DNA from: a virus
Taxonomy: Duplodnaviria > Caudoviricetes
IMG/VR virus record: IMGVR_UViG_3300015607_000582
Location: 64,001-128,000 of that record
Reading direction: 5' to 3' (one strand)
DNA length: 64,000 nucleotides
Made by a program: the position numbers and the translations under genes
The notes under the pieces: generated by a model
Database searches by the model: none
Told to the model about the DNA's origin: nothing
What the model saw: only the letters and a program-made list of their open reading frames with translations
In this document: piece after piece, positions 40,677-49,309 of the stretch
Layout: every line of letters begins with the position of its first letter
Position numbering within the stretch: the stretch's first letter is position 1

Positions 40677-41050
40677 CAGTCCCCCTCGTACCAGTCTGGG
40701 AAGTAGTGACGTGCCAAGTCCTCGCAGGACAGCTCGACGAACTGCCCCACCATGACCGGCTTGACGTTGCCGATCAGCACCCCAACCTCCTTCTGCGTCA
40801 TGTCGCGCAGGACGTTGAGCAGCAGGGCACTGCGATGCTGCTGAGGAACCTCAACGGGCCCCTCGCCAGTTAGGATGCAGTGCCGGATGGCTTCCACCTC
40901 GGTCAGCCCCATGTGAACCTCGGTGTCGCCGAGCCTGTAGACCAGCGCGAACTCCCCCGACTGCTGGCACACCTGCTTGAACGACTCGAAGTTCCGCAGC
41001 ACCTCGCGGAGCAGTCGATGCGGCTTCGCCAGAAACTCCTGCTCATCCAC
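40676..41050 (-). CDS. Sigma70 region 4-like HTH protein
   Basis: PQQHRSALLL...MTQKEVG.LIG. Confidence 0.55.
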   Translation of the reverse strand: MDEQEFLAKPHRLLREVLRNFESFKQVCQQSGEFALVYRLGDTEVHMGLTEVEAIRHCILTGEGPVEVPQQHRSALLLNVLRDMTQKEVGVLIGNVKPVMVGQFVELSCEDLARHYFPDWYEGD

Positions 41051-41642
41051 GAGCGGCCCCCTTCGACTTCTTGCGGCGCGGATTGCCCTTGGCCTTCGGC
41101 ACCCTGTAGCCGCCACCCACGAGACTGATCGCGATTGCGTCCGCCTCGTCTGCGGTCGACGTCAGCTCCTTCTTGCGCGGCTCCAGCTCGGGGAACACGG
41201 ACAGCACCGCGTTCCTGACCTGCACCTTGGTCGCGTCGCCGTAGCCAGTGGCGCGCTGCTTGACGGTCGTGGCCGAGAGCTGCTCGTACGGCCACTCCCA
41301 CTCCTCGCACAGCGCCTGACACACCGTGACAACGACCTGCGCGAGCTGTGACTGAACAGCCCCGCCCGACTGGAACCCGATGGCAGGAACGATCTCGAAG
41401 ACGATCCTGACGTCCGGGTCGCCATGCTCCACATGGAGGTCATCGAGGTGATCCGCGATGTCGGCGAAGTTGGACGCCCAGAACGTGACCAGTCGAGAGC
41501 GGTACTGCTGGTACGGCTCGTTCTGCTTGCGAGGCAGCGAGCAGACGCCAGAGCCGAGGTAGCGCCGCTCGCCATCGACCTCCTGAGTGAACGCCCACCC
41601 AGCCCGCTGCGCACCGGGGTCGATTCCGAGCACAATCGTCAT
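41043..41642 (-). CDS. ruvC: RuvC-like Holliday junction resolvase
   Basis: VLGIDPG, VFE, VK..ATGYGDATK.QV, DEADAIAI. Confidence 0.88.
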   Translation of the reverse strand: MTIVLGIDPGAQRAGWAFTQEVDGERRYLGSGVCSLPRKQNEPYQQYRSRLVTFWASNFADIADHLDDLHVEHGDPDVRIVFEIVPAIGFQSGGAVQSQLAQVVVTVCQALCEEWEWPYEQLSATTVKQRATGYGDATKVQVRNAVLSVFPELEPRKKELTSTADEADAIAISLVGGGYRVPKAKGNPRRKKSKGAARG

Positions 41643-42433
41643 GCCTTGGCCGCCTTCTTGATCGCGGTGCGTCCGGGGCACGCCTTGTCGGGGTTGCACT
41701 CGCACTTCGGCGGCGTCCCGGCGCGAAGGGCCTCGGCCACGATTGCCCAGCGTTCGTAGATCGACTCCACGAAGTCCGGATCGCGGTGGACGTGGCGCTC
41801 CTTGAAGCCGTGCGGCGTGTCCTTGTTCATGTAGAGCACGATGGCGAGATCGACGTCGTGCCAGTCCATGTAGAGCTGCGTCTGGGCCTCGTACTTCGGC
41901 CAGAAGCCGGTGTCCTGCCCCACGTTGTTGAAGGAGAACGACGCGGCGGTCTTCACGTCGACCAGAGCATCCCCGAAGTCGGGAATCTCGCAGTGCGAGA
42001 CGTCGGCGGAGCCACGGCACCACCAGAGGGCTTCCTTGATCTTCGGATCGGTGCGCCAGTCGACCGAGCAGTCGAGCACCGTGCCGTCGTCGGTGCGACG
42101 GAACTCGTGCTCGATGTACTCCGGCTTGGTGAACCCCATGTCGACCAGAGCGTTCTGCAGGAGGCCATGCAGCGCGTGACCGATCTGGAACACCCGCTGC
42201 GTCGACGCGGAGTGCTTCTCCGGCGGCAGCAGGCCCGCCATCGAGGCGTACGTCGCCGCCAGACATGCCAGCCCATGCGACGACGGATGGAAGGCGGTGT
42301 CGCGCTCCTTGTTCGGCTCGACGATGATCTTGATCTCGTCGGGGAACTGACCCCTGCTGTAGTAGAGGTCGAGGTGCGGGGCGAGGAGCAGTTTCTCCTT
42401 CGCCGTCTTGTTCAGGTTCTTGATGAAGCTCAT
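41639..42433 (-). CDS. Cas4-like / PD-(D/E)xK exonuclease
   Basis: FHPSS..C, G..LH, GSAD..DVKT, Q.QLYM, C-terminal Cys. Confidence 0.8.
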   Translation of the reverse strand: MSFIKNLNKTAKEKLLLAPHLDLYYSRGQFPDEIKIIVEPNKERDTAFHPSSHGLACLAATYASMAGLLPPEKHSASTQRVFQIGHALHGLLQNALVDMGFTKPEYIEHEFRRTDDGTVLDCSVDWRTDPKIKEALWWCRGSADVSHCEIPDFGDALVDVKTAASFSFNNVGQDTGFWPKYEAQTQLYMDWHDVDLAIVLYMNKDTPHGFKERHVHRDPDFVESIYERWAIVAEALRAGTPPKCECNPDKACPGRTAIKKAAKA

Positions 42434-42795: not shown

Positions 42796-42918
42796 CTACT
42801 CGCCCCTCTCGCAGTCGACGCAGCGAACCCAGAACGTGTCGCGATCCTGTCGCGACCACAGGACGAGCGCCAGCGTGACGCCGACGAACACCCCTGCGAG
42901 GAATGCGAGGACGATCAT
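42796..42918 (-). CDS. Small membrane protein
   Basis: MIVLAFLAGVFVGVTLALVLW. Confidence 0.5.
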   Translation of the reverse strand: MIVLAFLAGVFVGVTLALVLWSRQDRDTFWVRCVDCERGE

Positions 42919-44018
42919 TCGCCGACCTCCACTTCGTCGGCCGAGATCGGGTCGACGTTCTCGACCGGGCCGTAGGCGGTCTCCATCGCGTCCATGATCC
43001 CTGCCCGGATGAGGTCGTAGACCATCGGCTTCTCGGCGATGTGCGCCGCGACGCCCTTGACGCCCTGCACCTTCACGCCGTCGGGGAGCGTGTAGTACGC
43101 GCCGCCGCGCTTGATGATGCCGGAGCGCATGCCCGTGTTGATGACGTCGGCGACGGTGTCGACGCCGAAGGGGTAGTCGTCCGTCTCCATGTAGTACATG
43201 TCGTAGAGCGCCTTGCGACCCGAGCCCTCGGAGAGCTTGTTGCGCAGGATGTGCGCGATGATCGGCCGACCGATCTCGACGTCGGTTCCGGCGATCTTGG
43301 TCTTGAAGGGCGTGCCGCCGACCTTGAGGTGGACGATCATCGCCTCCATGTGCTCGATAGCGCGACCGCCCGGCTGCTTCACTGCCCCGGCGTAGCGCGC
43401 GTTCATGTCGTCGCGCTGCTGGTTGAGCATGACCAGCGCCGTGTTGGTGTGGTAGGCGGCCGGGACGCACATCTTCATGCCCCATGTGATGAGACCCGCC
43501 TGACCGCCAGTGCGGGCCTTGGCGTCGGTGCCGATCTCGCTCTCGCCGAGCAGGGCACCAATCGAGTCGAAGATGACCAGCCCGACCTCGGCCTCGATGC
43601 AGCGGTACATCATCTGGAACGCCTCCTCGCCCGTCTTGGGGAAGGCGACGAGGAGGTTGTCGACGTCGACGCCGTGCTTGGCCGCCCACGAGGGGTCGAA
43701 GCTCGTCTCGACAGCGAGCCAGACGGCGTCGAGCTTCTGGTTCTGGGCGTTGGCGACGATGCGGTTCGCCAGCACGCTCTTGCCGATGTCGCGGTGGCCG
43801 AAGATGCCGGTCGCATGGCCGCGCGGGATGCCGCCGATGCCGGTCTCGTAGTCGAGGGCGAGGATGCCCGTCGGGATGACGTCGAGCGGAGGCTTCTCGC
43901 TGCCGAGCACGGCGGCGCGGGGTCCGTACGCCTTCTGCAGCTCCTGCCCGAGCGAGTGCATCCGCACGGGCTTGACGGGCTTGGTCTTGTTCGCGTTGAG
44001 CTTGATCGGCTTGCTCAT
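42915..44018 (-). CDS. recA: RecA/UvsX-like recombinase
   Basis: IPTG..LD..GIGGIPRG, GHRDIGKS, IFDSIGAL, NQ.R, PGGRA. Confidence 0.9.
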   Translation of the reverse strand: MSKPIKLNANKTKPVKPVRMHSLGQELQKAYGPRAAVLGSEKPPLDVIPTGILALDYETGIGGIPRGHATGIFGHRDIGKSVLANRIVANAQNQKLDAVWLAVETSFDPSWAAKHGVDVDNLLVAFPKTGEEAFQMMYRCIEAEVGLVIFDSIGALLGESEIGTDAKARTGGQAGLITWGMKMCVPAAYHTNTALVMLNQQRDDMNARYAGAVKQPGGRAIEHMEAMIVHLKVGGTPFKTKIAGTDVEIGRPIIAHILRNKLSEGSGRKALYDMYYMETDDYPFGVDTVADVINTGMRSGIIKRGGAYYTLPDGVKVQGVKGVAAHIAEKPMVYDLIRAGIMDAMETAYGPVENVDPISADEVEVGE

Positions 44019-47000
44019 GTCAGTCGTTCCCCTCCTGCGAGCGTCAGCCCGCGATCCTTCACCTCGATGTCGAACAGGCCGAGCACTCCGGGCTTGAGGA
44101 GGTGCGACTTGTTCGCCTTCCAGACGCCGGGCCATGCCGCCGCCTGAATCCGTGATCCGTTCCACTCGACGGTGACGCGAGCCCACTGCTCTCCGGCGTT
44201 GTAGCCGCCCTCCTTGAGGGTGCGCTTGTCCACCTCGGCAACGACGCCGTAGCAGCGCATGCGCTCGCCGGTCTCGGCGAGCTGCACGTCGCCGACGGTG
44301 ACGCAACCGTCGACCCGCTCGGCGTTGTCGAGCAGGATGTCCGAGTAGAGGTCCTGAAAGACGATGCCGGTCAGCTCCTGCTCGAACTCGGCCCGGCGGT
44401 GCTTGTCGCACTGCACGACCACGTCCTTCTTGACGGTCTTCGAGGGGTCACGCACCTGCGGCACGTCCTGCTTCTCGCAGTACCAGTATTCGCCCTCGTA
44501 GAGGCCGTCGAACGCACCCGCGTTGAGTAAGGCGTTGAGGGCACCACGCGAGCAGAGCTGCTTCGGCGACTTCTCCGGGCGCTCGGCGGCGGGCAGCTTG
44601 AGGTGAGCCTTGTTCTGGGCTTCGAGCTTCGCGAGCAGATCCTCGAAGCTCTCGAACGGGCGATTGGCGATGATCCACTCGGCCGCCGTCTCGTTGACGC
44701 CCTTGACGGTGGACAGCCCGAACAGGATGTCGTCATCGACCTTCGACGTGATGACACCAGAGCGGTTGATGTCCGGCCCGAGCACGGTGACGCCCATGCG
44801 CCGACCCTCGTTGACGTAGTCGCCGACGCGCTCGGTGAGGCTCCGCTTGGTGGTGCCCTTGGCCGTCAGGATCGACGCGAGGATGAACTCGGTCGGGTAG
44901 TGGTACTTCATCCACATCGTCCAGAGCAGCACCTTGCCGTACGAGATGGCGTGCGACTTGTTGAAGCTGTACTTGGAGAAGTCGACGATCTCGTTCCAGA
45001 TGACCTCGGCCTGCTCCTCAGAGATGCCAGCGTCCTGCGCTCGCTGCAGGTATCGCGGATGCTCCGCGTGCATCTGCTTGACCTTTTTCTTGCCGAGGAT
45101 CGAGCGCATGTCGTCGGCCTCGCTCAGCGTGTAGCCGATGGCGCGGAAGTAGGCCAGCACGGACTCCTGATACAGGAAGTCACCGTACGTCTCGTTCAGG
45201 ATCGGTTCGAGGATCTCGTGCTGGTACCTGACCGGGGCCTCACCGGAGCGGCGCTCGAAGTAGCGGTCGACCATGCCCGAGCGGAGCGGGCCCGGACGGT
45301 TCAGCGCGACGATTGCGCCGAGGTCTTCGAGGGAGCGCGCCTCCATGTCCTTGGCGATGCGGCGTGCGGCGTTGCCGTCCTCGATCTGGAACAGCCCGAG
45401 CGTCATCTTGAGGTCGAGCAGCTCGTACATCTCGTCGGGCTGGTCGTCCCAGTCGATGTCCCGCTTGAAGATGTCGTTGGGGTTGCGGCCCGCCAGCTCG
45501 GGAACGAGGGCGACCGCCTCCATCAGCGTGTCGAGGTTCCGCAGGCCGAGCAGGTCGAGCTTGAGGAAGCCGAGCGCCTCGACCTCCTTCATCTCGATCT
45601 GCGTCACGAGCTTCTTGACCCCGGCAGTCTTGTCCTCGACGAGGCGACCGGGCAGCAACCCCGTCAGCGGCTCGTCGGAGAGGATCACGGCGGAGGCGTG
45701 GACGCCGTAGCTCGCCAGTCGCCCGGTGAGCCACTCGGCGGCCTCGAACAGCTCCGGGTACTCCTCGATGTACGGAGCCAGCTCGTCCTTGAGCGCCGTG
45801 TAGATGCCCTCGGCGATGACCGCACCGTCATCGTTGATGACGTCGTGCCACTCCGGCTGCTTGCCCGCATCCTCCAGCGTCTCGATGAGCTTCTTGATGC
45901 GCTCGGCAGCGGCGTAGTATTCGCTCCCCACGACGAGGTTCTTGGGACGCCCGGTCGCCCGGTCGTACTCGATCTCGCCGTACACGGGCTTGAGCGCCTT
46001 GTCGATGGCCGACTTGGGCTGCATCCGGATGTGCGTGCCGATGTCTCGAACGTGATCGTGGCCCCAGCGGCGGGCGAGGTACTCCTTCGCCTCGCCTCGG
46101 AACTTCTGGGGGATGTCGTTGTCGATGTCCGGCAGGCCGTCGGCGCGACCGGGGTTCCAGAACCGCTCGAAGAACAGGTTGTACTTGATCGGGTCGATGT
46201 CGGTGATCCCGAGCGAGTAGGCGAGGATCGAGCCAGCGGCGGAGCCACGACCGGGCCCGGTCAGGATCCCCTGACGGTGGCACCAGTTGATGAGGTCCCA
46301 TGTGATGAGGAAGTAGTCCTCCAGACCTCGCTCGCCCTTGCCGAACGCCTCGGTGATCGCGCGGAACTCGAACTCGGCGCGCTCGACGACCTCGTCGGGC
46401 AGATCGCCATTCTCGTCGCCGTACCGCTCGACCAGCCCCTCCTCCATCAGCTCCAGCAGGAGGGCCCTGTTGTTCGGCACCTCGCGGGCGACCTCGTCGG
46501 CCTGCGTGAACTTCGGGAGGTGCAGCTTCCGCTCCATCGGCGTGATGTCGCGGCACAGCTCCATGACGTTGAGCGTGTTCGCCATGCTCTCGGCGACGCG
46601 ATCCTCGCCGAGGTACGAGAGCGCACTGGCCATGGAGCTGCCGTCCATGATCCAGAGGTCTGGCGGATGGTGGCGCATCGCCCCGGTCACGGGGCTCTTC
46701 CAGCCATACCCCTCGCTGGTGCCGGGAGGCCCCATCTGCGCCGTCAGCAGAGTCTCGTGGTTGAAGTAGTCCTCCTGACAGGCGTAGTGCGCGTCGCTCA
46801 CGGCGAGCGTCGGAATCCCGCGCTCCTGCGCGATGGACACCAGAGCCTCGTTCAGGTCACGCTGCTCCTGCGTCCGGTAGGCGTGCAGCTCGATGTAGAA
46901 GCGGTCGCCGAAGATGCGCAGGTAGCGGTTGAGCGCGTCAGTGTCGTCGCCCTTGACACCCTTCGCCACGAGCCCCGCCATGCACGCGCTGGTGCAGATC

Positions 47001-47464
47001 AGGCCCTCGTTGTACTTCTCCAGCAGCTCCCAGTCGAGACGGGGCTGCGGGAACGGGTAGTCGCTCTTGGGGTCGTTCGCCGCCTGCGTGAGGATCTTGA
47101 GGTTGCGGGCCCCGACGTCATTCTGGGCCAGCAGGACGAGGTGGTAGGCGTCGCGCGGATGCGTCAGTCGCCGCTGCGTCCGCCCCGTCTCCGCGTTGGT
47201 GATCTCGCGGTAGTAGCTCTCGGGCCGCTGGTACCGATGCACCTCGGCCTGATACGCCTCCATGCCGCGACCGGCGAAGAGCCCACGCTTGTTCATCGCC
47301 TTCGCGAATGGCTCCCACCCAGCCACGAGGCCGTGGTCGGTGACGAACGCGCCCGGCATCCCGATGCTCTCGATGTGAGCAGCGATCTCCTCGACCGTGC
47401 CAGCGCCGTCGAGGGCACTGAACTCGGAGTGGAGATGCGTAGGACAATACACGCTATCGCACAT
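44015..47464 (-). CDS. dnaE: DNA polymerase III alpha subunit
   Basis: HLHSEFSALDG (PHP), GPGRGSAAGS, PDIDND, KLDLLGL, RPGP, FNKSHA, C-terminal OB fold. Confidence 0.95.
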   Translation of the reverse strand: MCDSVYCPTHLHSEFSALDGAGTVEEIAAHIESIGMPGAFVTDHGLVAGWEPFAKAMNKRGLFAGRGMEAYQAEVHRYQRPESYYREITNAETGRTQRRLTHPRDAYHLVLLAQNDVGARNLKILTQAANDPKSDYPFPQPRLDWELLEKYNEGLICTSACMAGLVAKGVKGDDTDALNRYLRIFGDRFYIELHAYRTQEQRDLNEALVSIAQERGIPTLAVSDAHYACQEDYFNHETLLTAQMGPPGTSEGYGWKSPVTGAMRHHPPDLWIMDGSSMASALSYLGEDRVAESMANTLNVMELCRDITPMERKLHLPKFTQADEVAREVPNNRALLLELMEEGLVERYGDENGDLPDEVVERAEFEFRAITEAFGKGERGLEDYFLITWDLINWCHRQGILTGPGRGSAAGSILAYSLGITDIDPIKYNLFFERFWNPGRADGLPDIDNDIPQKFRGEAKEYLARRWGHDHVRDIGTHIRMQPKSAIDKALKPVYGEIEYDRATGRPKNLVVGSEYYAAAERIKKLIETLEDAGKQPEWHDVINDDGAVIAEGIYTALKDELAPYIEEYPELFEAAEWLTGRLASYGVHASAVILSDEPLTGLLPGRLVEDKTAGVKKLVTQIEMKEVEALGFLKLDLLGLRNLDTLMEAVALVPELAGRNPNDIFKRDIDWDDQPDEMYELLDLKMTLGLFQIEDGNAARRIAKDMEARSLEDLGAIVALNRPGPLRSGMVDRYFERRSGEAPVRYQHEILEPILNETYGDFLYQESVLAYFRAIGYTLSEADDMRSILGKKKVKQMHAEHPRYLQRAQDAGISEEQAEVIWNEIVDFSKYSFNKSHAISYGKVLLWTMWMKYHYPTEFILASILTAKGTTKRSLTERVGDYVNEGRRMGVTVLGPDINRSGVITSKVDDDILFGLSTVKGVNETAAEWIIANRPFESFEDLLAKLEAQNKAHLKLPAAERPEKSPKQLCSRGALNALLNAGAFDGLYEGEYWYCEKQDVPQVRDPSKTVKKDVVVQCDKHRRAEFEQELTGIVFQDLYSDILLDNAERVDGCVTVGDVQLAETGERMRCYGVVAEVDKRTLKEGGYNAGEQWARVTVEWNGSRIQAAAWPGVWKANKSHLLKPGVLGLFDIEVKDRGLTLAGGERLT

Positions 47465-47469
47465 CGTTG

Positions 47470-47958
47470 TCAATACCTTCGCTGATTCGCATGGTGTGGC
47501 TGATGCGGACAGAAGCCGTGAATCCCGATGGAGCAGTTGCAGTTCCAGCAGAGGATGCGGTATGCGTCTGGCCAACCTTCCTTCTTGATCTTGCGCAGCA
47601 GGGTGAGCCCAGTGACACGCTTGCCACTCGGCCAGCGGTGATGATCTGGAACTCCGTGGATGTGATCGAGAGTGAGGAAGTGCTCCTCGGTCTCGCCGCA
47701 GCACGCACACTGGCCACCGTAGGCTTCGAGCATCTCGGCCCGAAGGCGCAGTCGAGCCCTCGTGTTGCTGTTCGCGTTCTGGCGACTGACCTTCTCCCGA
47801 TTCCCCTTGCGCCAGCGCCTCGTGTACTCGCTGTTGCAGAGCTTGCAGTACGACTGCCGGTAGCCCTTCGCCTTGTTCGTGAAGTGGAAGTCATCGACCG
47901 ACTTCTCCTTCTCGCACATCTTGCAGACCTTGGTCGCCACTGCCCTCTCCCATCGCAT
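47470..47958 (-). CDS. Free-standing HNH homing endonuclease
   Basis: N-terminal CxxC..CxxC; YGGQCACCGE..LTLDHI..LCWNCN; start may be 47943. Confidence 0.82.
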   Translation of the reverse strand: MRWERAVATKVCKMCEKEKSVDDFHFTNKAKGYRQSYCKLCNSEYTRRWRKGNREKVSRQNANSNTRARLRLRAEMLEAYGGQCACCGETEEHFLTLDHIHGVPDHHRWPSGKRVTGLTLLRKIKKEGWPDAYRILCWNCNCSIGIHGFCPHQPHHANQRRY

Positions 47959-47966
47959 TGTTGAAC

Positions 47967-47978
47967 TCACCACTTAGG
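47967..47978 (-). promoter_or_regulatory. Class III motif mostly inside the loop of a 10-bp hairpin (47959-47994)
   Basis: TGTTGAACTC...CCTAA-GTG-GTGA...GAGTTCAACA. Confidence 0.6.
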
Positions 47979-47998
47979 GTGAAGGAGTTCAACATGGA

Positions 47999-48040
47999 GG
48001 TTGCGCAGTATGAAGTGTCACACATGGGGTTGGTTTCCTC
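47999..48040 (-). pseudogene. Vestigial dnaE 5' end (RBS plus MCDTSYCAT)
   Basis: Parallels the functional dnaE start MCDSVYCPT at 47464. Confidence 0.65.
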
Positions 48041-48134: not shown

Positions 48135-49058
48135 CTACTGGTTGCCGGTCAGCTCGGCCTGCAGCTCCTCGAAGCGAGAACGCTTCTTGGGCTTCGCGGC
48201 CGGAGCCTCCGCCTTGGGCTCGGCGTCGTCGCCGTCCATGTCGTCCGCCACCTTCGCGCCGCCGGAGAACCGGCCCGCCGAGGAGCTGCTGCTCTTCGCA
48301 GAGGTCGACTTGGCGGAGCCGCCCTTCATCTTCGCGTACTTGTTGAAGACGTGGTCCTCGGGCAGCGACTCGACGATCTCCCGCATGCGGTCCTCGGACG
48401 CCAGCTCCTCGACGTACGCTTCGAGGCGCTTCTCGGCCTCCTCGACGTTCTCGGGCATCTCGAACTCCTTGCCCGTGTACGCGATGGGAGCGTAGGTCGT
48501 GTTCTGGTCCTTGCCCTGACGGGTGATGCAGAAGACCTGATCCTCGATGGGACCGATCTCGTCCGCGAACGCCCGCAGGTTGGGGAAGAACGTCGAGGGC
48601 GACTCGATGACGAGGTAGATCGCGGGCTCGGTGACCTCCTCGGAGCCACCGTCCTCGGTCTTGCGGTTGAACGTGCGCTCCATCGGCTTGAACGAGACGA
48701 TCTTGCCGCCCTTGAGCACCGGCTCCATCTCGCAGACGATGGCGATGGAGCGGTTGCTGGGGCTGTAGCCCCGGTCGGCGAGCGGGTCGTACCCGGACGG
48801 GCCGTCGATGTTGGGATCGCGGCGGCTGATGAAGTCGCGCCACATCGGCTTGTTGGTCTTCGGGTTCGTCCCGCAGTCCATCATCTTGTGGTAGAGGACG
48901 GTGGGGATGTCGTCCATTCCACTGAGGAAGAGCACGTAGTGCTTCTCGCCGTCGTCCTTCCAGCGCAGGTTGGGGACGAACGTCCCGCCCTTGCCGCCAG
49001 ACGCAGCGGCCTTCTTCATCTCTTCTCCGCCCTTGCGGAGATTGGCGAACACAGCCAT
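48135..49058 (-). CDS. Single-stranded DNA-binding protein (phage type)
   Basis: Position between primase and polymerase; ITRQG..QNTTY; low-complexity acidic tail. Confidence 0.65.
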   Translation of the reverse strand: MAVFANLRKGGEEMKKAAASGGKGGTFVPNLRWKDDGEKHYVLFLSGMDDIPTVLYHKMMDCGTNPKTNKPMWRDFISRRDPNIDGPSGYDPLADRGYSPSNRSIAIVCEMEPVLKGGKIVSFKPMERTFNRKTEDGGSEEVTEPAIYLVIESPSTFFPNLRAFADEIGPIEDQVFCITRQGKDQNTTYAPIAYTGKEFEMPENVEEAEKRLEAYVEELASEDRMREIVESLPEDHVFNKYAKMKGGSAKSTSAKSSSSSAGRFSGGAKVADDMDGDDAEPKAEAPAAKPKKRSRFEELQAELTGNQ

Positions 49059-49117
49059 TTCACGACTCCTTGGTCTACTGAGCTGATGCACAGTCCCTTG
49101 TGGACCGCGCATGACCA

Positions 49118-49143
49118 AGGATACTGGCCGCGTCGGACGAACC
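49118..49143 (-). promoter_or_regulatory. Class II promoter
   Basis: GGTTCGTCCGAC-N8-TATCCT. Confidence 0.75.
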
Positions 49144-49147
49144 TTCG

Positions 49148-49309
49148 TCAGTCGCAGTCGCCGCAGGGCTCCGAGCACCCGCAGGGGCGTCCAGCCTTGC
49201 TGGTCTTGCTGATCGTGTCGAGCTTCGCGGCCAGCTTGTTCAGCTTGGCGTTGTCGGCGGGCTTGACCGCCTTCGGCTTCTCGGTGATCGCGAACTTGCG
49301 GAAGGACAT
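49148..49309 (-). CDS. Small basic protein with C-terminal Cys cluster
   Basis: MSFRKF...CGCSEPCGDCD; follows a class III motif. Confidence 0.55.
   Translation of the reverse strand: MSFRKFAITEKPKAVKPADNAKLNKLAAKLDTISKTSKAGRPCGCSEPCGDCD

What the first reader, a model, noticed from the sequence alone, without database searches (positions are those of the whole stretch)
47435..48040. HNH endonuclease inserted into the dnaE 5' end, with a recoded replacement start
Seen: upstream of the HNH, a GAGG RBS precedes ATG TGT GAC ACT TCA TAC TGC GCA ACC (MCDTSYCAT, 48025-47999), which runs into a 44-aa dead-end frame. Downstream, dnaE starts ATG TGC GAT AGC GTG TAT TGT CCT ACG (MCDSVYCPT-HLH). The peptides are similar but the codons differ. 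There is no room for a group I intron core. Inference: intron-less homing into an essential gene, where the element splits its target and carries a new RBS and N-terminus so the polymerase survives and is immune to cutting.
Basis: partly seen in the sequence, partly recalled or inferred. Interest (0 to 1): 0.7.

Follow-up and report, generated by a model that had tools for sequence, protein, structure and literature searches.

The report
Homing nuclease carrying spare dnaE start
A selfish DNA-cutting enzyme gene sits nine codons into this phage's essential DNA polymerase gene and keeps the gene whole, with no splicing, by supplying a differently spelled ribosome site and first nine codons; this design is published for fungal mitochondria and yeast, and I found no published phage example.

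Summary
On the minus strand, a ribosome site and the start MCDTSYCAT (48025-47999) open a 44-codon dead-end frame. A 162-aa HNH/EndoVII-like nuclease gene follows (47958-47470). The real dnaE start, MCDSVYCPT-HLH, is at 47464. The two 9-mers are the only such pair in the 143-kb genome (about 1 chance match per 28.6 million shuffled positions). All 5 shared-residue codons differ at the third base, and all 10 first and second bases agree.

The reading is supported. Related nuclease genes occupy the same slot, just 5' of the polymerase HxH codons, in three distant phages. Two of these show the same relic and respelled pair. Other relatives lack the nuclease and have one start. An 86%-identical DnaE begins MCDHPYCAT-HLH, which is the predicted join.

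For a nuclease of the same family at another gene, a nuclease-free relative matches the relic at 59/60 bases and the live copy at 38/60.

No intron or intein is present. Cleavage and immunity are untested.

The closest known systems are fungal mitochondrial mobile endonuclease ORFs and yeast WHO elements, both of which act at gene 3' ends. This scan has noted the same layout in other phage genomes, including at dnaE. I rate it a new variant of a known kind.

The parts
48135..49178 (-). SSB-like gene, the left neighbour. In HNH-free relatives its homologue is followed directly by dnaE.
   Evidence: phrog_1607 gives a weak hit. It aligns with the genes upstream of dnaE in L024, L023, L003 and L026 at 32-37% identity.
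48037..48040 (-). GAGG ribosome-binding site of the relic, presumed native, dnaE start. It lies 11 nt before the ATG.
   Evidence: Read from the sequence. The spacing is the same as for the live start.
47999..48025 (-). Relic of the dnaE start: 9 codons encoding MCDTSYCAT.
   Evidence: Position 8 (A) agrees with the 86%-identical relative P0125.
47891..48025 (-). Dead-end 44-codon frame opened by the relic start. It runs through the HNH hairpin and across the HNH start. It is in the same frame as dnaE but closed by TGA.
   Evidence: GC3 is 0.55, like non-coding sequence, against 0.87-0.93 in neighbouring genes. Pfam finds nothing.
47959..47994 (-). Hairpin with perfect 10-bp arms plus an inner stem. 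Its 3' arm ends at the HNH ATG and it covers the HNH ribosome site.
   Evidence: The arms were read. The RNA fold predicts the stem, with z = -2.35 for the 121-nt stretch. It was first noted in e1-5745469.
47470..47958 (-). Free-standing HNH/EndoVII-like (beta-beta-alpha-metal) nuclease gene, 162 aa, with an N-terminal zinc ribbon.
   Evidence: phrog_2255 E = 2.7e-19 and phrog_1035 (endonuclease VII) E = 1.7e-15. Pfam Endonuclease_7 E = 0.0028, below its cut-off. Invariant Cys, His and Asn columns appear in 18 homologues. The AF2 model has pLDDT 94. PDB matches are weak but mostly HNH domains. GC3 is 0.80, and 0.72 in the 3' half.
47476..47480 (-). GAAGG ribosome-binding site of the live dnaE start. 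It lies inside the last HNH codons, in the conserved (Q/E)RRY tail.
   Evidence: The same tail and arrangement occur in L005, and the same tail with the site elsewhere in L023 and L109.
47438..47464 (-). Live, respelled first 9 codons of dnaE (MCDSVYCPT). Four of the eight codons after ATG are rare in this genome.
   Evidence: The start region is less structured than shuffled sequence (z = +0.97).
44015..47464 (-). dnaE, encoding the DNA polymerase III alpha subunit, 1149 aa and intact.
   Evidence: Pfam finds PHP, DNA_pol3_alpha, the finger domain and HHH_6. phrog_405 E = 5e-244.

Best explanation
A free-standing HNH/EndoVII-like homing endonuclease cassette lies inside the 5' end of the phage's essential dnaE gene, at the border between codon 9 and the first His codon of the PHP-domain HxH motif.

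The cassette consists of a hairpin-guarded HNH gene, a ribosome site embedded in the HNH's last codons, and its own copy of dnaE codons 1-9. That copy encodes nearly the same peptide with different codons. The native ribosome site and first nine codons stay upstream as a relic that now opens a dead-end frame. DnaE is therefore made whole from the cassette's start, and no RNA or protein splicing is needed.

Inferred steps follow. In mixed infection the nuclease cuts nuclease-free dnaE alleles near the codon 9/HxH junction. Repair copies the cassette, using the relic and its upstream DNA as the left homology arm and dnaE from the HxH codons onward as the right arm. The carrier allele escapes cutting because the relic has lost the right half of the site and the live copy has a respelled left half.

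The respelled copy most likely began as the start of a diverged orthologous dnaE, joined by one-sided illegitimate break repair. It was then kept dissimilar by selection against self-cleavage and against repeat-mediated loss.
For: Shown:
- The anatomy and the non-chance 9-codon pair.
- The nuclease identity.
- Patchy presence at one slot. HNH is present in the window, L023, L005/L027 and L109, always directly 5' of the HxH codons. It is absent in L024, L003, L026 and L192, which have a single start.
- The same relic and live pair in L005 (MATPI, 4/4 synonymous codons differ; the relic ATG overlaps the stop of the upstream gene) and in L023 (MIPT/IIPT, 3/3 differ).
- P0125, an 86%-identical DnaE, begins MCDHPYCAT-HLH.
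- The same architecture in the same HNH family at other genes: L150 and L157 (both N-terminal), L147 and L124 (both C-terminal). Scores are 127, 93 and 77, against a 99th percentile of 43 in mismatched controls.
- A direct test. HNH-free L190 matches the L150 relic at 59/60 bases, the live copy at 38/60, and the next 60 downstream bases at 59/60.
- Pooled over seven cases, 51 of 61 same-residue codons differ, against 34.8 expected at synonymous saturation (P = 5e-6; with uniform codon use 39.8 expected, P = 8e-4).
- HNH GC3 is 0.80 against 0.87-0.93 in neighbouring genes.

Published precedent for the mechanism:
- Mitochondrial mobile endonuclease ORFs with a foreign C-terminal copy and a native relic (PMC3630166, which cites Paquin et al. 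1994).
- WHO elements that replace the FBA1 3' end (PMC7282813).
Against: - No cleavage, homing or expression data exist.
That the relic is the native copy is therefore shown only by analogy (L150/L190) and by one shared residue with P0125.
- The pair is only 9 codons long. Both copies carry rare codons, so codon use does not say which copy is foreign.
- A/T-ending codons are also expected at any gene start in a GC-rich genome.
- L109 shares only 6 identical bases, with no respelling.
- Two cultured-phage members of the family, Glenn and Galactica, show no flanking duplication, so the layout is not universal.
- A nuclease held in one slot across distant phages could also be a domesticated partner of the polymerase.
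Confidence: 0.75

Rival explanations
1. In-situ duplication followed by respelling. The insertion itself duplicated the first codons of dnaE, for example through repair of a staggered or resected break. The live copy was then changed base by base under selection for resistance to the nuclease or for repeat stability. No foreign donor allele was involved.
For: Same-residue codons differ more often than two independent synonymous draws would (51/61 against 34.8 expected). In L150 the diverged tract coincides with the duplicated part, and identity returns to 59/60 directly after it.
Against: The live copies also differ in non-coding spacer, including an indel in the L150 ribosome-site spacer, and in several residues (window 3/9, L150 4/18). 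That looks like orthologue divergence. The published mitochondrial cases were judged to be foreign. Many simultaneous changes would be needed before immunity is reached.
Confidence: 0.15
2. Domesticated nuclease. The HNH protein is now a working partner of the replication module, for example in repair or resolution. It is kept next to dnaE for co-expression, and the relic is only a scar of an old insertion. No homing takes place today.
For: The same slot is used in four phages whose DnaE proteins are only 31-41% identical to the window's. The C-terminal (Q/E)RRY tail is conserved, and its codons hold or adjoin the dnaE ribosome site. dnaE has non-ATG starts right at the HNH stop in L005 and L023, which suggests coupled translation.
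Against: The nuclease is absent in the closest relatives (L024, L025, L003, L026, L192). In each lineage the relic still tracks that lineage's own N-terminal peptide, which argues for recent, repeated events rather than one ancient one. The phage already has a RuvC-like resolvase.
Confidence: 0.07
3. Splicing or bypass. A group I intron, an intein or ribosome hopping joins the relic codons to the rest of dnaE.
For: The relic and dnaE are in the same frame with one stop between them. Inteins do occur at this PHP motif in other phage DnaE genes (L020; P0126).
Against: No Rfam intron is found at E up to 10, and only 45 nt of non-HNH sequence are available. HNH lies in another frame. The in-frame read-through is compositional junk with no intein motifs. 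The live copy has its own ribosome site, ATG and full N-terminus, so a joined product would carry the peptide twice.
Confidence: 0.02
4. Chance. The upstream ATG-led frame only happens to resemble the dnaE N-terminus.
For: The match is only 9 residues, and DNA identity is 15/27.
Against: It is the only such match in the genome, and 1 in 28.6 million shuffled positions reaches its score. Its ribosome-site spacing, frame and place are the same as for the live start. Parallel pairs occur in L005, L023 and L150. P0125 shows the peptide is a lineage trait.
Confidence: 0.01

Closest known systems
Mobile endonuclease ORFs (mORFs) that form gene hybrids in fungal mitochondria: Allomyces macrogynus atp6 (Paquin, Laforest, Lang 1994, as cited in PMC3630166), and Glomus atp6, atp9, cox2 and nad3 (Beaudet et al. 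2013, PMC3630166)
   Same: A free-standing endonuclease gene is inserted near a gene end together with a second copy of that end. The functional copy is diverged in bases (64-81%) but nearly identical in protein. The native end is left as a relic that is 91-98% identical to relatives. This is the same pattern measured here (window 15/27 bases; L150 38/60 against 59/60).
   Different: Those cases sit at the 3' end, replacing the C-terminus and the stop. They use LAGLIDADG or GIY-YIG enzymes and occur in organelle genomes. Here the 5' end is replaced, including the ribosome site and start codon. The enzyme is an HNH/EndoVII-like nuclease, the genome is a phage, and the target is the replicative polymerase.
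WHO elements at the yeast aldolase gene FBA1 (Coughlan et al. 2020, PMC7282813)
   Same: These are homing elements that enter an essential gene without splicing and replace its end at each integration. Cleavage was shown to be allele-specific.
   Different: They act on the 3' end in nuclear genomes, use an intein-derived LAGLIDADG-type nuclease with zinc fingers, and build clusters of relics. A single relic is seen here.
Intron-less homing by free-standing endonucleases of T-even phages (SegF, SegG, MobE; e.g. PMC2790892, PMC2988022)
   Same: A free-standing phage nuclease gene lies next to its target gene, has a patchy distribution, and the carrier genome is protected by sequence differences in the target (my knowledge of these papers; titles seen).
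   Different: Those genes sit between genes, and no duplicated, respelled gene terminus is part of the element.
Gene-splitting insertions: mobE in the Aeromonas phage Aeh1 nrdA gene, and the mobA plus 50-nt bypass cassette in T4 gene 60 (recalled from memory, not read here)
   Same: A homing endonuclease gene is inserted inside an essential phage gene, and extra sequence keeps the gene working and the site uncuttable.
   Different: There the gene is expressed as two polypeptides or by ribosome bypass. Here one intact polypeptide is made from a replacement start.
Synthetic 'home-and-rescue' gene drives that target an essential gene and carry a recoded rescue copy (recalled from memory; cf. PMC6176634 on essential-gene targets)
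   Same: The logic is the same: cut an essential gene and supply a cleavage-immune, respelled copy of the cut part, so that only conversion products are viable.
   Different: Those are engineered, RNA-guided and built for diploid animals. The comparison is an analogy only.

Membership tests
HNH / endonuclease VII-like (beta-beta-alpha-metal) nucleases | Significant match to a family profile | tested here: met
   phrog_2255 (HNH endonuclease) E = 2.7e-19 and phrog_1035 (endonuclease VII) E = 1.7e-15. Pfam Endonuclease_7 reaches only E = 0.0028, 17.9 bits against a cut-off of 23.6.
HNH / endonuclease VII-like (beta-beta-alpha-metal) nucleases | Catalytic His after the first strand, Asn/His metal ligands, and Cys pairs that hold zinc | tested here: met
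   C84, C86, C87, H99, C137, N139, C140, N141 and H152 are invariant in 18 homologues.
HNH / endonuclease VII-like (beta-beta-alpha-metal) nucleases | Beta-beta-alpha-metal fold | tested here: inconclusive
   The AF2 model has pLDDT 94.1. Foldseek finds no match at E <= 0.001, but the top rows are Cas9 HNH, Gme HNH, T4 EndoVII and Hpy99I. VIA-align gives Z = 6.0 to the Hpy99I zinc ribbon, 4.2 to Gme HNH and about 3 to T4 EndoVII.
Free-standing homing endonuclease genes (intron-less homing) | Presence and absence among related genomes at one and the same locus | tested here: met
   Present in the window, L023, L005 and L109. Absent in L024, L003, L026 and L192.
Free-standing homing endonuclease genes (intron-less homing) | Not carried within an intron or intein | tested here: met
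   No Rfam family matches. HNH is in a different frame from dnaE, and there is an in-frame stop.
Free-standing homing endonuclease genes (intron-less homing) | Site-specific cleavage of the nuclease-free allele, and resistance of the carrier allele | not testable with these tools
   This needs purified protein and synthetic substrates, or mixed infections.
Terminus-replacing homing cassettes (mitochondrial mORF gene hybrids, WHO elements) | The nuclease gene is flanked by two copies of the target gene's terminal codons, one attached to the gene and one orphaned | tested here: met
   The window's copies lie at 48025-47999 and 47464-47438.
Terminus-replacing homing cassettes (mitochondrial mORF gene hybrids, WHO elements) | The orphaned copy matches nuclease-free relatives, while the attached copy is diverged in bases but conserved in protein | tested here: inconclusive
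   This is met for family member L150 against L190 (59/60 against 38/60 bases). For the window only a protein of a relative was available: P0125 shares 7/9 residues with the relic and 6/9 with the live copy.
Terminus-replacing homing cassettes (mitochondrial mORF gene hybrids, WHO elements) | Replacement of the 3' end of the target | tested here: not met
   Here the 5' end, with its ribosome site and start codon, is replaced. Family members L147 and L124 do replace 3' ends.
Group I intron with an endonuclease ORF | Conserved catalytic RNA core flanking the ORF | tested here: not met
   cmscan at E up to 10 finds no intron family. Only 40 + 5 nt of non-ORF sequence are available.
Intein | In-frame insertion with splicing blocks and no stop | tested here: not met
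   The in-frame read has a TGA stop and no intein-like sequence, and the nuclease is in another frame.

The most novel reading that the evidence does not exclude
A widespread family of phage HNH/EndoVII-like nucleases spreads as natural 'home-and-rescue' drives. Each cassette enters the first or last few codons of a target gene, including the essential replicative polymerase at its invariant HxH motif. It carries a copy of the displaced codons that selection keeps maximally different in bases from the native target, more different than synonymous saturation would give. The carrier is therefore uncuttable and the flanking repeats cannot recombine the element out. In some lineages the nuclease also takes over the target's own start signals and leaves the polymerase with a weak non-ATG start coupled to nuclease translation.
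Probability: 0.45. Interest if true: 0.75.

Novelty: new variant of a known kind. Interest (0 to 1): 0.55.

Why it matters
It shows how a selfish nuclease can settle inside an essential gene with no intron or intein: it brings a spare, differently spelled gene end. This explains odd duplicated mini-ORFs and non-ATG starts next to HNH genes in phage annotations.

It marks the 5' end of phage dnaE, just before the HxH motif, as a homing hot spot that is also used by inteins.

It extends a design published for fungal mitochondria and yeast (3' ends) to phages and to 5' ends, including the translation start signals.

The pooled excess of codon differences offers a sequence-only way to read the likely recognition stretch of uncharacterised homing nucleases. 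It is also a natural counterpart of engineered rescue drives.

Tried and rejected
- DNA search of the region against GenBank phages found no match. The best DnaE hit there is 29% identical.
- A degenerate DNA pattern for the N-terminal peptide joined to HLHSEF found nothing in viral contigs.
- A pattern for the HNH C-terminal motif found only the L005 contig.
The contigs of P0002, P0005, P0010 and P0125, and the eight contigs that hold the identical HNH, could therefore not be read.
- The genome-contig scan returned only cellular DnaE at 32-36% identity.
- A search for shorter proteins found no closer DnaE fragments.
- Homology beyond codon 9 between the relic frame and dnaE is not significant (p = 0.23).
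- Flanking duplications were looked for and not found in Arthrobacter phage Glenn and Streptomyces phage Galactica.
- L109 shares only 6 identical bases.
- No close relatives were found for the L124 target gene.
- L107 and L128 give high-scoring flank matches that I set aside as low-complexity Arg/Pro-rich frames.
- A PDB sequence search gave only noise.
- Codon use did not show which window copy is foreign, because both carry four rare codons.
Full report
**What is there**

The window is part of a 142,928-base IMG/VR phage contig (about 96% complete, 65% G+C). Its replication genes lie on the minus strand in this order:
- a DnaB-like helicase (51634-50393)
- a primase (50400-49339)
- an SSB-like gene (49178-48135)
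- the feature under study
- dnaE (47464-44015)
- a RecA-like gene and a RuvC-like gene

After the SSB-like stop come GAGG (48040-48037) and, 11 nt on, ATG 48025. This ATG opens MCDTSYCAT and a 44-codon frame that ends at TGA 47893-47891. A 162-aa ORF in another frame runs from ATG 47958 to TGA 47470. Five bases after that stop, ATG 47464 opens dnaE with MCDSVYCPT followed by the PHP-domain motif HLHSEFS. Pfam places PHP from residue 9. The dnaE ribosome site, GAAGG (47480-47476), lies inside the last codons of the 162-aa ORF, again 11 nt before the ATG.

**Is the pair more than chance?**

Yes. Scanning all six frames of the genome with the live 9-mer gives one other hit at BLOSUM62 score 39, which is the relic. 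The next best scores 29. In 100 shuffled genomes only 1 of 28.6 million positions reaches 39.

The differences are patterned. For the six shared residues, all first and second codon bases agree and all five synonymous third bases differ. Three codons are replaced outright. Neutral decay of a duplicate would not give this pattern. Both copies have evolved, or been selected, as coding sequence for nearly the same peptide. Similarity beyond codon 9 is not significant.

**The inserted gene**

It matches the PHROG families for HNH endonuclease (E = 2.7e-19) and endonuclease VII (E = 1.7e-15). It matches Pfam Endonuclease_7 only weakly. An alignment with 17 homologues shows invariant Cys, His and Asn columns typical of the zinc-bound beta-beta-alpha-metal site, and an N-terminal CxxC...CxxC ribbon.

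The AlphaFold model is confident (pLDDT 94). Its PDB matches are weak (Z up to 6), although most are HNH domains: Hpy99I, Gme HNH, Cap5, Cas9 HNH and T4 EndoVII. The gene's GC3 is 0.80, falling to 0.72 in its 3' half, against 0.87-0.93 in its neighbours.

A perfect 10-bp hairpin (47994-47959) ends at the HNH ATG and covers its ribosome site. It lies inside the relic frame, so translation from the old dnaE start would pass through it.

**No splicing**

Rfam finds no intron at E up to 10. Only 40 + 5 nt are not HNH coding sequence. The in-frame read from the relic to dnaE has a stop and no intein-like sequence. The live start has its own ribosome site, sits in an unstructured stretch and encodes a complete N-terminus.

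**Relatives**

No close relative's DNA could be fetched. Distant relatives are nevertheless informative.

In the nearest HNH-free phages (L024 at 53% DnaE identity; L003 and L026 at about 41%), the SSB-like homologue is followed directly by dnaE with one start and a 3-5 residue N-terminus before HNH/HLH.

HNH homologues (37-46% identical) sit in exactly the same slot in three phages, in each case directly 5' of the first His codon:
- **L005/L027.** The stop of the upstream RNase H-like gene overlaps an ATG that opens MATPI and three further codons before a stop. After the HNH gene, dnaE begins with the same five residues before HNH, but from ATA. All four synonymous codons differ. Its HNH-free relative L192 (DnaE 80% identical) has one ATG start, MPTPL-HNH, right after the RNase H-like gene.
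- **L023.** The relic MIPT is fused in frame as the start of the HNH ORF. dnaE restarts at ATC as IIPT-HNH, and 3/3 synonymous codons differ.
- **L109.** It shares only six identical bases, so it is not informative.
- **P0005.** This database HNH protein begins MATPIH, another relic fusion.

For the window's own lineage, the protein P0125 (86% identical over the first 300 residues) begins MCDHPYCAT-HLHSEHS. The peptide is therefore a lineage trait. The relic shares position 8 with P0125, and the live copy does not.

**The layout is a family habit**

I took 71 distinct loci holding members of this HNH family from IMG/VR and compared the flanks of each nuclease gene in all frames. L124, L150 and L147 gave peptide matches scoring 127, 93 and 77. 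The 99th percentile in mismatched control pairs was 43. L157 gave an 8-residue match.
- L150 repeats the window's design at a DUF932 gene. It has a relic ribosome site and 20 codons ending in a dead-end frame, then the HNH gene, then a live start.
- L147 and L124 show the mirror image at gene 3' ends. L124's target is a DegT-type aminotransferase.

L190 is an HNH-free relative of L150 (88-89% identical in the flanks) and gives the direct test. Its single start matches the relic at 59/60 bases and the live copy at 38/60. Identity returns to 59/60 in the 60 bases after the duplicated part. The cassette therefore carries the nuclease gene plus its own ribosome site and first codons. The relic is the native start.

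**Are the copies just diverged, or kept different?**

Pooled over seven cases, 51 of 61 same-residue codon pairs differ. Two independent draws from each genome's codon usage would give 34.8 (P = 5e-6). Uniform codon usage would give 39.8 (P = 8e-4). This excess fits three possibilities: selection against base identity with the native target (self-immunity), selection against repeat recombination, or donors with different codon habits. The non-coding and amino-acid differences in the live copies point to a foreign orthologous origin with later selection, as in the mitochondrial cases.

**Mechanism proposed**

Shown: the cassette anatomy, its patchy distribution, relic = native and live = diverged in a family member, and the absence of any splicing apparatus.

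Inferred:
- The nuclease cuts naive dnaE near the codon 9/HxH junction.
- Repair copies the cassette, using the relic side and the HxH side as homology arms.
- The carrier allele is immune because one half-site is displaced and the other is respelled.
- The founding event was a one-sided illegitimate repair from a diverged donor.
- Targeting an invariant catalytic motif of an essential gene would make simple resistance mutations costly.

**Comparison with what is known**

The design is published for two systems. Fungal mitochondrial mobile endonuclease ORFs carry an inserted foreign C-terminus, with the native C-terminus left as a relic. The inserted copy is 64-81% identical in bases and about 100% in protein, while the native copy is 91-98% identical to relatives (PMC3630166, which cites Paquin et al. 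1994). Yeast WHO elements replace the FBA1 3' end at each integration and need no splicing (PMC7282813).

T-even intron-less homing shares the free-standing nuclease and the protective polymorphism, but not the duplicated terminus. My literature searches found no phage description. These searches cover open-access text only.

This scan has already noted the same layout on other phage DNA, including at a dnaE 5' end (e1-3272823, e1-3436039, e1-3538426, e1-2901086, e1-5744293, e1-5930646). Those are notes of the same kind as this one, not independent proof.

**Verdict**

The feature is a new variant of a known kind: the 5' end with its start signals, an HNH/EndoVII-like enzyme, and a phage replicative polymerase. 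Interest is moderate to good.

Noticed in passing
window 47959-47994 (minus strand): A perfect 10-bp hairpin ends at the HNH ATG, covers its ribosome site and lies inside the relic frame. Translation from the old dnaE start could open it, or the hairpin could silence HNH on long transcripts.
   Followed up: partly
L005:3995-4016 and L023:3435-3446: In two HNH-carrying relatives dnaE has no ATG, GTG or TTG start. The only candidates are ATA (L005, overlapping the HNH stop) and ATC (L023, 3 nt after the HNH stop, same frame). Each is preceded by a strong Shine-Dalgarno sequence inside the HNH 3' end. This suggests polymerase translation coupled to nuclease translation.
   Followed up: partly
window 47470-47490; L005:3985-4004; proteins P0003, P0004, P0005, P0007, P0010, P0012, P0014: A subfamily of these nucleases ends in a conserved PHQPH..(Q/E)RRY tail. 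In the window and in L005 the Arg codons of this tail form the dnaE ribosome site. Only dnaE-linked members in IMG/VR have the RRY ending.
   Followed up: partly
L020:3146-4030; protein P0126: Other phage DnaE genes carry inteins. L020 has an intein-like insert ending ...SHN/S within the same PHP motif, just before the xDG residues. P0126 is 73% identical to the window's DnaE, has LAGLIDADG and intein-splicing domains, and its gene call is cut short at the N-terminus.
   Followed up: no
L124:3004-3774: This is a tandem double nuclease, two HNH/EndoVII-like modules in one 256-aa ORF. It is inserted about 30 codons before the end of a DegT-type aminotransferase gene and has a 25-codon respelled duplication.
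   Followed up: partly
window 42915-44411 and 41043-42266 (minus strand): The RecA-like ORF (498 aa, RecA domain from residue 157) and the RuvC-like ORF (407 aa, RuvC domain from residue 212) both have long N-terminal extensions with no Pfam match, if the longest ORFs are the real genes.
   Followed up: no
loci L273-L352: The nearest cellular DnaE proteins (34-36% identity) come overwhelmingly from Ilumatobacteraceae and other Acidimicrobiia. This is a weak hint at the host lineage of this high-G+C phage.
   Followed up: no
window 47465-47710 (minus strand): The dnaE frame stays open for 82 codons upstream of the real start, back to GTG 47710, and overlaps the HNH gene. Automatic gene callers could therefore mis-start dnaE or drop the HNH gene.
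   Followed up: no
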